Source of the DNA: a virus
Taxonomy: Duplodnaviria > Heunggongvirae > Uroviricota > Caudoviricetes
Reading direction: 5' to 3' (one strand)
Virus record (IMG/VR): IMGVR_UViG_2541047712_000002
DNA length: 64,000 nt
The stretch's first letter is position 1; each line of letters opens with the position of its first letter. A program made the position numbers. This document shows positions 51,001 through 54,000 of the stretch, piece by piece.

Positions 51001-54000
51001 TTATTGAAGAGGCTATTCAAGAATCACTTCTAACTATGCATAGCTTATTTTTGCTGGAAGACAAGCAAAACTACGAAGAGTACTTACGGTCGATAAAAGG
51101 TGAGAGAACATTGTCACTTAAAGCCGATTTCGTTACCCCGACAAACCTGTTGGAAGTCTTGCTTAATAAAGGGGCTAATGATGCCGTAAATGTAATCAGA
51201 GAGAGTGAGTATGCGTCTCTTTGCGACATGTGCAAAAGCCAGTTGGATCTGGTGCATATCGTTATTGATGCTGGGAAGGCATGTGATGGCGTAATGGCGG
51301 AGTTTGCTGGGAAGATGGTCAGGATTGCTAACGAATTACCGATGATAGAGCAAGAGGCTAAATCATACGCCACCAATCATGTCACAGAGCTTCTTGTCCC
51401 CTATCGCTTAGAAAGCGATCAGCGCAAGATGATTAGCTGGGGAAGTTGGTAAGCTCTCAGTGTGTCGTTTTTTACGCAAATAATGATAGGTAAGCACAAG
51501 ATTATTTTTGGCGGTAATTGTGAAAGCTGATTTGTCAAAAATCCCCTCTATTTCAGGAAATAATGGTTATTCACTTCGTTGTGAGGAAGTAAAGATAAAC
51601 GGTGAGTCGGCATATTGCAGCTACTCCGTTTGCCAGCACACCATTCTTGCCTTCAAAGAAAACCGTCTTCCTCGAACTTCATTCCAGTCGTGCGCAACCG
51701 CTATCAAAGCAGGCAAATGCAAGGCGTTAAAAATGATGGTTGAAGAGATTCGTAAAGGAGAATCTCTGTATTTCGAAGATATGACCGCGCTCATTAAGGA
51801 GGTTGAAGAACGGAATAAACAAGCCAGAACTTTAAAACGAAAACGTGACAGTGTAACGATTAATAGCATGGTTAAGAAGAGCACCACATCACAAACAGCG
51901 ATCACTGACGTGTATGCGGCGTTGCTTGAAGAAACAACAAAAGAAACACATGAGCAAATCGATCAACATATGGAGGTAAAACAACAATGAAAAAGTTGAT
52001 CGCACTTAAGCATAAGCTGGACGAAATGAAAGCTATGGGCACCAATGCAAAAAAAGAGGCATTGGCCAACATGGATGACTTTGAACAAAGCATGGTTTCA
52101 TTGATGCTCAACCCTTTCATCCGTTTTGGGGTAAAGAAATACAAAATGGCAGAGCCGCTTAGTGAGTCCATCCCAAGTGACGAAAAAGCCATTGATGTAC
52201 TGAATAAGCTGGCCTCTCGCGAGCTAACGGGGAACGCAGCAATAGCCGCTGTTGAGTCTATCGTGGCGTCAATGTGCGCCGATGGGCAGGACGTGTTCCG
52301 TCGTTTCCTCTTAAAAGACCCGAAAGCAGGTGTTGGGATTAGCCTATGCAACAAGGTTTTTGAAAATCCCATTCCGAAATTCGAGGTGCAGCTGGCGTCA
52401 CCGTATAAAGAAAAAGGCGACAAATACCCCTTCAAGCCAAATCCTAAAGCAAAATGGCCGATGATTGGCAGTCTTAAGCTCGATGGTTTGCGAGTAATTT
52501 GCGAGGTTATTGTTGACGAGGAAGAGGTTAACTTCCTTTCTCGTACTGGTAATCCAATCACGTCTCTCGATCACCTAAAGCCAGCCATGCTCGAATTAGG
52601 CAAACTTTCAGGCCACAAACACATCTTCTTCGATGGTGAAGGAACTGCCGGTTCATTTAACCAGTCCGTATCTGCATTGCGCAAAAAGAACGTGCAGGTA
52701 ATTGGCGCTATTTATCATGTTTTCGACTTCTTCCTACCGGAATGGCGAGCACAGGCTAAATCCAAAGAGTATGCAAAGACAGGTATGAAGCTGAAAGAGC
52801 GCCTGGCTATGCTGGTGGCGTTGTTCAAAAACGATCGCAGTGAAGGCTACACACAAGACATTCACCTGCATCCGTTCTATATCATCCATAGCCACGAAGA
52901 CTTCATCGAACGCTTCATGAAACGCCTGGACGATAACGAAGAAGGGGAGATGGGCAAAGATCCGAACTCTGTTTACGAGTTTAAACGTACCCGCAGCTGG
53001 TGGAAGTTAAAAGACGAAGATTCAGAAGATGGTGAAATTATCGACTTTGAGCCGGGCGATCCGGACTCTGGTTTTGCCAACACACTTGGAAAAATTGTTA
53101 TTCGTCTTGAAAACGGCGTCATCGTTCGTGCGAGCGGCATTAAGCATAAATATCTGGATGAGATCTGGAACAACAAAGAGAAGTACCGTGGTCGTATTGT
53201 CGAGGTTCATTGTCACGAGAAAACACCGGACGGCAGCTTACGCCACCCACGACTGAAATGGCCGCGTTGCTTACGCGATACAGAAGATCGAATCGGAGAT
53301 AAAGAATGATGCTCGGCTGGATGATTGCATTTTTAGCGGTTGGTTTTTTAATCGGTATTGTGGTGATGTCCAGTTGCATCAATGACTACATTAAAAGCGG
53401 TGTTATAGAAAGACGCGGTCGTATTTATCGTATTGTAGAAATAACCAACACCCTGAAGGAGATTAAGGATGATCGTATTAAGTAAACGGGAGAAGGAAAC
53501 GCTTCATGAAATCAGTAAGTGGCCGGAGTTCCCTGAGTACTGGAAGCCTAAAACGCGAGCTAAGTTAGAGCGTTTAGGGTTGGTTGCAAACGTTTCTGAA
53601 ACGTGGTGTTCGGCCAACTACCAGTTAACTGATAAAGGGAAAGTATTGCTACAGCAATTAGTAGAATCAGGAGTGTTAAAATAATTCCATACATCTCATT
53701 AGCTTTTATGGGTGGCTTCCTTATCGGCTTCGGCATCTGTCGTGATTTAATTAAGCAGGAACTTAAAACCAAAACACTGTGCATCGGAAAGCGTGTGTAT
53801 CGGGTAGTTCATGAAACAAAGGTGAAAAAATGAGCAATTTAACTTCTTGGGAATGGTGGTTGGCCACCTATTTCTTAGCGGCCGGAGTCGCATTCGCCTT
53901 TTACGTAGGTCAGTTAGTCGTAAAACTGTTGCTGATTAAATTTGCTAGTCATAAACGTATCGATGATGGTCTGTGGCGTCTTGGCACCCTGGTGGAAACT

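What the first reader, a model, noticed from the sequence alone, without database searches (positions are those of the whole stretch)
53306..53833. Unannotated paralogous small membrane peptides downstream of the ligase gene
A 59-aa ORF (53306-53485) and a 41-aa ORF (53708-53833), both below the ORF-track cutoff, share a hydrophobic FLIG core and a basic R-x-Y-R-I/V-V-E/H-x-T tail. Both are translationally coupled to flanking genes (ATGA overlaps). Small TM peptides at module ends often act as holin-like or exclusion factors.
Basis: seen in the sequence. Interest (0 to 1): 0.4.

Follow-up and report, generated by a model that had tools for sequence, protein, structure and literature searches.

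The report
Paralogous small membrane proteins after ligase
Two tiny membrane-protein genes after the DNA ligase gene of an SSU5/pHCM2-type phage-plasmid are real, conserved, ancient duplicates of unknown function; they are already annotated in relatives (one as "AplA"), are not holins, and one has lost its start codon in this sequence.

Summary
The window is an E. coli SSU5/pHCM2-like phage-plasmid. After its ATP-dependent ligase come four short, overlapping genes:
- g1, 53306-53485, named AplA by NCBI's annotation pipeline.
- g2, 53469-53684, winged-helix-like.
- g3, 53681-53833.
- g4, 53830-54120, a membrane protein.

g1 and g3 are real genes. dN/dS is 0.1-0.3 (one g3 comparison reaches 0.58), and they occur in 532 and 682 PLSDB plasmids.

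They are true paralogues. hhalign gives E 6e-6 over 48 gapless columns, shuffles reach the observed score in 0-5 of 20,000 trials, and each family's profile picks the other as its best non-self hit. Bridging sequences exist, and some distant relatives carry a single hybrid copy.

Both share an N-terminal transmembrane helix with a near-invariant GxxxG and a basic tail motif, KxG..h.(G/R)xR(V/I)Y(R/K)(V/I)V.

The ancestral gene has 50 codons, and here its ATG is ATA (G->A at 53683). That change separates the window from its nearest plasmid and was found nowhere else.

A holin role is unsupported, because a complete lysis cassette lies 10 kb upstream. Expression in the lysogen is at background in phage Cyrano RNA-seq.

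Most likely these are lytic-cycle, membrane-tethered modulator peptides; this is inferred, not shown. Interest is low to moderate.

In passing: a strongly conserved, structured non-coding element lies just downstream (54135-54390).

The parts
51987..53309 (+). ATP-dependent DNA ligase (440 aa), the upstream gene to which g1 is coupled; context only
   Evidence: Pfam DNA_ligase_A_M E 9e-13. Annotated as DNA ligase in Cyrano, SSU5 and pHCM2.
53306..53485 (+). g1, named AplA ('after-plasmid-ligase protein') in RefSeq. It is 59 aa from the ATG at 53306 (ATGA overlap with the ligase stop) or 58 aa from the ATG at 53309. It has an N-terminal transmembrane helix with G13xxxG17 and a basic tail containing RRGRIYRIVEIT.
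   Evidence: phrog_4381 E 1e-39. dN/dS 0.09-0.14. GGAG at 53295-53298, 7 nt upstream of the ATG at 53306. Found by tblastn in 532 PLSDB plasmids. 57 of 58 residues identical to an aplA product.
53469..53684 (+). g2, a 71-aa soluble winged-helix-like protein between the two paralogues. It overlaps g1 by 17 nt.
   Evidence: phrog_4054 E 2e-45. Weak winged-helix hits: Pfam HTH_45 E 0.18 and the Csa3 C-terminus E 1.5e-3. Found in 637 plasmids. Absent in L015, L019 and L022.
53681..53833 (+). g3, the ancestral 50-codon paralogue of g1 (IIPYISLAFMGGFLIGFGIC...GKRVYRVVHETKVKK). Its start codon is ATA in this window. Its stop overlaps the g4 start (ATGA).
   Evidence: phrog_6302 E 1e-36 over the full 50-position profile. 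Alignment with Cyrano, SSU5 and pJN2-26 shows ATG in all three. dN/dS 0.19-0.58. Found in 682 plasmids. AGGAG at 53669-53673.
53683..53683 (+). G->A substitution that turns the g3 start ATG into ATA while keeping the g2 stop (TGA->TAA)
   Evidence: It is the only difference from pTHO-010-2 within 53280-54130. The ATA variant has 0 hits in IMG/VR against 16 for ATG. No complete E. coli genome in RefSeq is 100% identical over this stretch.
53708..53833 (+).
   Evidence: No Shine-Dalgarno sequence upstream. Only 11 uncharged N-terminal residues remain. This ATG is absent in SSU5 and pJN2-26. The exact 41-aa sequence is not in the 15-billion-protein collection.
53830..54120 (+). g4, a 96-aa single-pass membrane protein with a roughly 60-aa basic C-terminal domain. 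It follows a g1/g3-type gene (or g2) in every architecture examined that retains it. It is mislabelled 'C-type natriuretic protein' in many records.
   Evidence: phrog_4507 E 2e-58. dN/dS about 0.1. Not a detectable paralogue of g1 or g3: hhalign probability 2% and 0.2%. Found in 653 plasmids. The AlphaFold2 model is a long helix plus a hairpin at pLDDT 67.

Best explanation
SHOWN. Window 53306-54120 is the four-gene tail of the helicase-primase-ligase replication operon of an SSU5/pHCM2-type phage-plasmid. g1 (AplA) and g3 are ancient paralogues that arose by duplication of a single 'after-ligase' peptide gene, which more distant relatives still carry as one hybrid copy. Each encodes a protein of 50-59 aa. 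Each has an uncharged N-terminal transmembrane helix with a near-invariant GxxxG, then a linker of about 12 residues, then a basic motif K-x-G-h-h-x-h-(G/R)-x-R-(V/I)-Y-(R/K)-(V/I)-V-(D/E/H)-x-T. Both are under purifying selection and have canonical Shine-Dalgarno sequences with overlapping stop/start codons. g3 and its neighbours g2 and g4 are silent in the lysogen; g1 was not measured.

INFERRED. By the positive-inside rule the topology is N-out/C-in, so the conserved basic motif faces the cytoplasm. The proteins are made stoichiometrically with the replication enzymes during lytic growth. They probably act as membrane-tethered modulator or adaptor peptides. In this model the GxxxG helix packs against another transmembrane helix (each other, g4, or a host inner-membrane protein), and the short tail, rich in beta-branched residues, contacts a cytoplasmic surface. 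That would make them host-takeover or regulatory small membrane proteins, comparable in principle to MgrB, AcrZ or SgrT in bacteria and to SPO1 gp56 in phage (comparison from my own knowledge). They would not be pore formers.

In this particular element g3 is knocked down or out by ATG->ATA.
For: Identity of the element:
- 98.5% identical to phage Cyrano and 79% to SSU5.
- Synteny helicase-primase-...-ligase-g1-g2-g3-g4 in SSU5, pHCM2, pMT1 and in Klebsiella, Cronobacter and Enterobacter plasmids.

Real genes:
- Third-position changes dominate; dN/dS is 0.09-0.14 for g1 and 0.19-0.58 for g3.
- Found in 532 and 682 PLSDB plasmids, against 758 with the ligase.
- The exact g3 protein occurs on at least 1,000 contigs.

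Paralogy:
- Statistical tests.
- The two families align end to end without gaps.
- Bridging sequences P0073, P0075, P0079 and P0084.
- Architectures with a single hybrid copy (ligase-peptide-g4) in L019 and L022, and g1'-g3'-g4' in L015.

Conserved features:
- GxxxG in 61 of 64 distinct members and the RhY(R/K)hh motif in 63 of 64.
- Tails have pI 9.7-10.2, with no charge N-terminal of the transmembrane helix.

Coupling and expression:
- Shine-Dalgarno sites and overlaps.
- CYRAN_36-39 at background or floor in lysogen RNA-seq, like the primase and ligase (PMC9928086, S1 Table).
- No sigma-70-like promoter match in 49000-55600, against 10 +/- 3.3 in shuffles, consistent with a long operon.

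g3-g4 do not depend on ligase, g1 or g2:
- The L013 deletion fuses the ligase N-terminus to the g2 C-terminus but leaves g3-g4 intact.
Against: - No experimental data exist on translation, localisation or partners.
- There is no homology to any characterised protein in Pfam, NCBIfam 20.0, PADLOC or the PDB.
- AlphaFold2 models g1 as one continuous helix at low confidence (pLDDT 71 overall, about 60 in the tail). The hairpin shape of the tail is therefore only my reading of the residue pattern.
- GxxxG is common in transmembrane helices, so it proves no particular partner.
- g1 is dispensable in many elements. It is missing from about 37% of Escherichia plasmids and is precisely deleted in L005. 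g3 has just lost its start codon here. Neither gene is therefore essential for plasmid maintenance.
- The lysogen RNA-seq did not measure g1 and says nothing direct about lytic expression.
Confidence: 0.4

Rival explanations
1. Lytic-cycle superinfection exclusion or immunity. The peptides sit in the inner membrane and block DNA entry by a second phage of the same type. This would resemble T4 Imm/Sp made early in infection, or HK97 gp15 and P22 SieA.
For: They are small inner-membrane proteins with cytoplasmic tails, like HK97 gp15, which inserts into the inner membrane and blocks injection (PMC3594210). The family is confined to one phage-plasmid group (24 of 1.84 billion representative proteins). 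Presence is variable (g1 is lost in many Escherichia elements), as is typical of accessory conflict genes.
Against: g2-g4 are at background in the Cyrano lysogen and are not among its morons, whereas gp15 and SieA are expressed from the prophage. The genes have no promoter or terminator of their own and are coupled to replication genes. There is no Pfam YebO hit, no exclusion-related PHROG hit and no PADLOC hit. The strong conservation of g3 (motif GKRVYRVVHET largely invariant) is not what a fast-evolving conflict gene usually shows.
Confidence: 0.2
2. Membrane anchoring of the phage replication machinery. The peptides, with g4, tether replication or ligation proteins or DNA to the inner membrane, as phi29 p1 and p16.7 do.
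For: They are embedded in, and translationally coupled to, the helicase-primase-ligase operon in every architecture, including the minimal ligase-peptide-g4 form. Their basic tails are predicted to be cytoplasmic. phi29 p1 and p16.7 are early membrane proteins proposed to anchor replication (PMC4974454).
Against: The tails are only 25-33 residues long and contain no recognisable DNA-binding domain. g3-g4 persist where the ligase is deleted (L013) or not annotated next to an IS100 insertion (pMT1, L006). g1 is often lost. There is no homology to p1 or p16.7.
Confidence: 0.15
3. Holin, antiholin or lysis-timing factor.
For: They are small, have one transmembrane helix and a charged C-terminus. 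g4 has a weak hit to a holin PHROG that covers only the transmembrane helix (E 0.027).
Against: A complete lysis cassette (holin-endolysin-Rz-Rz1) lies at 42200-43630. g1 and g3 lie 10 kb away in the replication operon. They hit no holin family. Their conserved motif is a specific basic tail rather than a generic charged end.
Confidence: 0.03
4. Type I toxin-like membrane peptides that contribute to plasmid stabilisation by post-segregational killing.
For: They are small hydrophobic peptides on a low-copy phage-plasmid that carries several toxin-antitoxin systems (KacT, RelE and HicA in Cyrano).
Against: There is no Hok/Gef or other toxin family hit. No antisense RNA family was found and no promoter of their own. 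They are silent in the lysogen, whereas post-segregational killing needs expression in the plasmid state. They are translationally coupled to a ligase.
Confidence: 0.05
5. Chance ORFs or non-functional remnants, with the similarity due to hydrophobic composition.
For: They are very short, and the g3 start is mutated here.
Against: Purifying selection. Hundreds of intact orthologues. Shuffles that preserve segment composition rarely reach the observed score (5 of 20,000). Bridging sequences exist.
Confidence: 0.02

Closest known systems
AplA, 'after-plasmid-ligase protein' (NCBI PGAP name), equivalent to PHROG 4381 and SSU5_045; g3 corresponds to PHROG 6302 and SSU5_047
   Same: g1 is 57/58 identical to a RefSeq aplA product at the same position. 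It gives full-length hits to the PHROG profiles.
   Different: The name describes position only. The PHROGs are 'unknown function' and no paper was found. In the records examined g3 is not named and is not linked to AplA. The paralogy shown here appears not to be recorded.
HK97 gp15 (YebO family) and P22 SieA: prophage inner-membrane superinfection-exclusion proteins
   Same: They are small phage-encoded inner-membrane proteins (PMC3594210).
   Different: gp15 and SieA are morons expressed from the prophage. g2-g4 are silent in the lysogen and lie inside a replication operon. There is no sequence similarity.
phi29 p1 and p16.7: early membrane proteins that organise replication at the membrane
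   Same: They have an N-terminal membrane anchor, are encoded with early or replication genes, and have a cytoplasmic C-terminal part (PMC4974454).
   Different: p16.7 is about 130 aa with a folded DNA-binding domain (my own knowledge). The tails here are 25-33 aa. There is no homology, and the genes persist without the ligase.
Bacterial regulatory small membrane proteins (MgrB, AcrZ, SgrT, MgtR) and the phage SPO1 gp56 division inhibitor (comparison from my own knowledge)
   Same: They are single-pass proteins under 60 aa whose transmembrane helix binds a larger membrane protein. The conserved GxxxG is consistent with helix packing.
   Different: No partner is known here and there is no homology. 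This is a functional analogy only.
Class III holins and pinholins
   Same: They are small, with one transmembrane helix and a charged C-terminus.
   Different: g1 and g3 are not in the lysis cassette, which exists elsewhere in the window. They hit no holin family.

Membership tests
PHROG 4381 (g1) and PHROG 6302 (g3), conserved phage proteins of unknown function | Full-length match to the family profile | tested here: met
   E 1.4e-39 over positions 1-59 of 59, and E 1.4e-36 over positions 1-50 of 50.
AplA (after-plasmid-ligase protein, NCBI PGAP) | A small protein encoded directly after the plasmid ATP-dependent DNA ligase, with sequence identity to named members | tested here: met
   The syntenic CDS in NZ_CP082122.1 is named aplA and is 57/58 identical to window g1. 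The local NCBIfam release 20.0 has no matching model, so membership rests on identity to a named RefSeq protein.
Holin | Encoded in a lysis cassette next to endolysin and spanin genes | tested here: not met
   The lysis cassette is at 42200-43630. g1 and g3 lie 10 kb downstream, after the ligase.
Holin | Similarity to a known holin family | tested here: not met
   No Pfam or PHROG holin hit for g1 or g3 at E <= 10.
Holin | Small protein with at least one transmembrane helix and a charged C-terminus | tested here: met
   Uncharged runs of 26 and 20 residues, and tails with 9-10 K+R. This feature is generic and not diagnostic.
Holin | Forms lethal membrane lesions at a programmed time | not testable with these tools
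   Needs expression and membrane-potential assays.
Prophage superinfection-exclusion proteins (HK97 gp15/YebO, P22 SieA) | Expressed from the repressed prophage as an independent transcription unit (a moron) | tested here: not met
   CYRAN_37-39 have FPKM 5-7.6, at local background or floor, and are not in the moron list (PMC9928086). There is no promoter-like site. g1 itself was not quantified.
Prophage superinfection-exclusion proteins (HK97 gp15/YebO, P22 SieA) | Sequence similarity | tested here: not met
   No YebO or other hit in Pfam, and no hits in PADLOC.
Type I toxins (Hok/Gef and similar) | Family similarity plus a cis-encoded antisense RNA and its own promoter | tested here: not met
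   No Pfam hit. No Rfam antisense family in 52500-55700. No promoter-like site.
Paralogue pair g1/g3 (single superfamily) | Collinear, statistically significant similarity with intermediate sequences | tested here: met
   g4 fails the same test.

The most novel reading that the evidence does not exclude
The AplA-type peptides (g1 and g3) together with g4 form a membrane complex specific to SSU5-like phage-plasmids. The complex is assembled through the invariant GxxxG helices and is made only in lytic growth. It either tethers the replication and repair machinery to the inner membrane or captures a host inner-membrane protein. The minimal ancestral unit would be ligase-peptide-g4, and duplication would have produced two specialised peptides.
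Probability: 0.3. Interest if true: 0.45.

Novelty: new member of a known kind. Interest (0 to 1): 0.25.

Why it matters
SSU5/pHCM2/pMT1-type phage-plasmids are widespread in clinical Enterobacterales. The cassette is in 234 of 5,426 complete E. coli genomes, in S. Typhi pHCM2 and in Y. pestis pMT1, and related elements carry resistance genes.

g3 is nearly a core gene of the group, present in about 90% of elements, yet it has no known function. Three results make a small, tractable target for phage small-protein biology:
- g3 and AplA are one family.
- The family has an invariant GxxxG and a conserved cytoplasmic motif.
- The genes are silent in lysogeny.

On present evidence this remains an ordinary pair of conserved hypothetical phage genes, not a new kind of system. 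The start-codon loss matters for annotation: the 41-aa ORF should not be propagated.

Tried and rejected
- **Family searches.** Pfam, NCBIfam 20.0, PADLOC and PDB sequence searches gave only noise for g1, g3 and g4.
- **g4 as a third paralogue** (its LWRLGxLxE resembles the motif). Rejected: hhalign probability 2% and 0.2%, and shuffles not significant.
- **Further paralogues in the window.** None found by profile or motif scan of all six frames.
- **Distant relatives outside SSU5-like elements.** An exhaustive HMM search of 1.84 billion representatives gave 24 hits. The sequences inspected are clearly members or fragments of the same two families. Every hit whose context was looked up and could be judged lies in the syntenic post-ligase position on contigs of about 104-112 kb; one lay on a 635-bp fragment. 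The weakest hit (E 5.8e-4, a 4,307-aa protein) looks spurious.
- **AlphaFold2 models.** g1 (pLDDT 71, a single helix) and g4 (pLDDT 67) were too uncertain for fold searches, which were therefore not run.
- **Promoter, terminator and Rfam scans** found no independent transcription unit or antisense RNA for the peptides.
- **Literature searches** for AplA or 'after-plasmid-ligase' found nothing. The pHCM2 transcriptome search returned nothing that looked relevant; its hits were not opened.
- **The 'C-type natriuretic protein' label on g4** has no support in any family search here and is treated as a propagated misannotation.
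Full report
**What the region is.** The window belongs to an SSU5/pHCM2-type phage-plasmid of Escherichia. Bases 51900-54400 are 98.5% identical to phage Cyrano (pLF82) and 79% to Salmonella phage SSU5. Bases 53280-54130 match 752 PLSDB plasmids, including S. Typhi pHCM2 and Y. pestis pMT1. They also match plasmids in 234 of 5,426 complete E. coli genomes, and never a chromosome.

Four short, tightly packed genes lie downstream of the ATP-dependent DNA ligase (51987-53309; Pfam E 9e-13):
- g1: 53306-53485, 59 aa.
- g2: 53469-53684, 71 aa.
- g3: 53681-53833, 50 codons.
- g4: 53830-54120, 96 aa.

A tRNA cluster follows. The four are annotated as hypothetical proteins in SSU5 (SSU5_045-048), pJN2-26, pHCM2 and pMT1. 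Cyrano annotates g2-g4 (CYRAN_37-39) but not g1. They match PHROGs 4381, 4054, 6302 and 4507, all of unknown function. In a recent RefSeq annotation g1 is named 'aplA, after-plasmid-ligase protein AplA', and that product is 57/58 identical to window g1. I found no paper on it.

**Checking the observation.** Both ORFs exist at the stated coordinates, and both ATGA overlaps (ligase/g1 and g3/g4) are real. The second ORF is mis-bounded.
- In Cyrano, SSU5, pJN2-26 and every other relative examined that carries g3, it starts 27 nt further upstream. It starts with an ATG that overlaps the g2 stop (ATGA) and encodes MIPYI....
- In the window this codon is ATA. The G->A change at 53683 keeps the g2 stop (TGA->TAA).
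- It is the single difference from plasmid pTHO-010-2 across 53280-54130, and one of two differences in 3,851 bp.
- The ancestral start has an AGGAG 7 nt upstream. The internal ATG at 53708 has no Shine-Dalgarno sequence and would leave only 11 uncharged residues, too few to cross a bilayer.
- The 41-aa product is not in a collection of 15 billion proteins, whereas the 50-aa protein is on at least 1,000 contigs.
- The ATA variant has 0 exact matches in IMG/VR against 16 for ATG.
- No complete E. coli genome is 100% identical over this stretch.

So g3 is a recently disabled or strongly weakened gene in this element, or position 53683 is a sequencing error.

**Are they genes?** Yes. Against five relatives at saturating synonymous divergence, changes concentrate at third codon positions. 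dN/dS is 0.09-0.14 for g1, 0.19-0.58 for g3 and about 0.1 for g4. tblastn finds the ligase in 758 PLSDB plasmids, g1 in 532, g2 in 637, g3 in 682 and g4 in 653. In Escherichia the counts are 220, 139, 220, 218 and 218. g3 is therefore nearly core and g1 is accessory. In pXH988_2 (L005) g1 is precisely deleted between two ATGAT repeats, leaving g2 ATGA-coupled to the ligase.

**Are g1 and g3 paralogues?** Yes.
- BLASTP gives E 9e-6.
- The Smith-Waterman score of 57 was reached by 0 of 20,000 full shuffles and 5 of 20,000 shuffles that keep the transmembrane and tail compositions separate.
- hhalign of the two ortholog alignments gives E 6.3e-6 over 48 gapless columns.
- Among 1,439 six-frame ORF fragments of the window, each family profile picks the other as best non-self hit (E 4e-3 and 5e-4; next best 0.12 and 0.66).
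- MAFFT aligns both families end to end without internal gaps. The shared columns are M, G13, G17, R39, Y41, R42 and T47.
- An exhaustive profile search of 1.84 billion representative proteins returned only 24 hits. Among them are sequences intermediate between the two families, for example P0075 '...DWIKQDIKSGIVRFGNRVYRVVHET' and P0079 'MMIPYI...RRRVYRVVEIT'.

The contexts of these hits show the history. Distant SSU5-like contigs carry ligase-single hybrid peptide-g4' (L019, L022), ligase-g1'-g3'-g4' (L015) or ligase-g1'-g2'-g3'-g4' (L016). The likely ancestral unit is ligase-peptide-g4, followed by duplication and insertion of g2. g4 is not a detectable paralogue, and there are no further copies in the window.

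**Anatomy.** Both proteins begin with an uncharged stretch of 20-26 residues that contains GxxxG (GFLIG in the window). GxxxG is present in 61 of 64 distinct family members, while the surrounding hydrophobic residues vary. A linker of about 12 residues follows, then the motif K-x-G-h-h-x-h-(G/R)-x-R-(V/I)-Y-(R/K)-(V/I)-V-(D/E/H)-x-T; its core is present in 63 of 64 members. The tails are basic (pI 9.7-10.2) and no charge precedes the helix, so the positive-inside rule predicts N-out/C-in (inference).

The two conserved glycines and the run of beta-branched residues suggest to me a short beta-hairpin. AlphaFold2, working from a shallow alignment, instead drew one long helix at low confidence (pLDDT about 60 in the tail). 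The tail conformation is therefore open. g2 is a small winged-helix-like protein (weak hits only). g4 is a single-pass protein with a roughly 60-aa basic domain (low-confidence model).

**Expression context.** All four genes have Shine-Dalgarno sequences at 5-7 nt spacing and overlapping stop/start codons. No sigma-70-like promoter match occurs anywhere in 49000-55600, against 10 +/- 3.3 in shuffles. In published RNA-seq of the Cyrano lysogen, CYRAN_36-39 (ligase, g2, g3, g4) have FPKM 5-7.6. That is the local background or floor, like the primase. Listed morons such as CYRAN_40 and CYRAN_43 are well above their local background (15-fold and 723-fold in the paper's moron table) (PMC9928086). 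The cassette therefore behaves as part of the repressed lytic replication operon.

**Function.**
- A holin role is not supported. A complete lysis cassette lies at 42200-43630 (a 111-aa protein annotated as holin in Cyrano, endolysin phrog_873, Rz phrog_1026, Rz1 phrog_1275), and no holin family matches g1 or g3.
- Prophage-type exclusion (HK97 gp15, P22 SieA; PMC3594210) is disfavoured by the silence in lysogeny and the lack of an independent transcription unit. Lytic-phase exclusion cannot be excluded.
- A phi29 p1/p16.7-like anchoring role (PMC4974454) fits the operon context. However, the tails are very short. g3-g4 also persist where the ligase is deleted: in L013 an in-frame fusion joins the ligase N-terminus to the g2 C-terminus.
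- The most economical reading is that these are lytic-cycle, membrane-tethered modulator or adaptor peptides. Their GxxxG helix would pack against another transmembrane helix (each other, g4 or a host protein), and their conserved basic motif would act on the cytoplasmic face.

I give the last reading 0.4. It is an inference from anatomy and context, not a demonstrated mechanism.

**Verdict.** The new points are the AplA/g3 paralogy, the invariant GxxxG plus tail motif, the single-copy ancestral arrangement, and the private start-codon loss in this element. Interest is low to moderate (0.25).

**In passing.** Within about 15 nt of the g4 stop lies a non-coding element of roughly 250 nt (about 54135-54390) that is far more conserved than the flanking genes.
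- It is nearly invariant across SSU5, pMT1, Klebsiella, Cronobacter and Salmonella elements, and is recognisable in the most divergent loci.
- It begins with a conserved TTTACT-17 nt-TAAGAT promoter-like motif.
- It folds better than shuffles (z = -3.2).
- In a six-sequence RNAalifold consensus, 10 of 60 pairs carry compensatory changes.
- It matches no Rfam family beyond a weak tmRNA-like hit.

This may deserve its own follow-up.

Noticed in passing
window 54135-54390 (+), between the g4 stop (54120) and tRNA-Asn (54898): A non-coding element of about 250 nt that is far more conserved than the neighbouring genes. It is nearly invariant in SSU5, pMT1, Klebsiella, Cronobacter and Salmonella elements, and is detectable in the divergent loci L015, L016 and L022. 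It has a conserved promoter-like TTTACT-17-TAAGAT at its 5' end. Folding z-score is -3.2. The RNAalifold consensus has 60 pairs, 10 of them with compensatory changes, for example CACAC/GUGUG to CAGAC/GUCUG. The only Rfam match is a weak tmRNA-like hit (E 0.013). It may be an undescribed structured RNA, or a leader or origin element, of SSU5-like phage-plasmids.
   Followed up: partly
window 53683: A G->A change destroys the g3 start codon (ATG->ATA) while preserving the overlapping g2 stop. It is private to this sequence among everything searched. It could be a recent knock-out or a sequencing error.
   Followed up: yes
window 49000-55600: There are zero sigma-70-like promoter matches on either strand, against 10 +/- 3.3 expected from shuffles. 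This suggests long operons or non-canonical promoters in the replication module.
   Followed up: no
window 42522-43241 (+): The endolysin (phrog_873, E 2e-88) ends in a hydrophobic segment, IIFGIATIVVAGFIAWSQV. This would be a possible C-terminal membrane anchor, which is unusual for an endolysin.
   Followed up: no
L013 1600-1850 (K. pneumoniae pM1026-3Ar.4) and L005 1500-1530 (E. coli pXH988_2): Two natural deletion variants. In L013 an in-frame fusion of ligase residues 1 to about 75 with the g2 C-terminus removes the ligase catalytic domain, g1 and most of g2 but keeps g3-g4. In L005 g1 is precisely excised between ATGAT repeats.
   Followed up: partly
window 53830-54120 (g4) and its homologues: Hundreds of GenBank and RefSeq records label this phage-plasmid membrane protein 'C-type natriuretic protein'. 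No family search here supports that name, so it appears to be a propagated misannotation.
   Followed up: partly
window 54978-55064 and Cyrano L001 5578-5653: The tRNA cluster differs between close relatives. ARAGORN calls Asn, Tyr (87 nt) and Ser in the window, whereas Cyrano and pIncFIB of strain PC-NDM34 are annotated Asn, Thr and Ser. The window tRNA-Ser(UGA) scores best against the Rfam tRNA-Sec model, just below its threshold.
   Followed up: no
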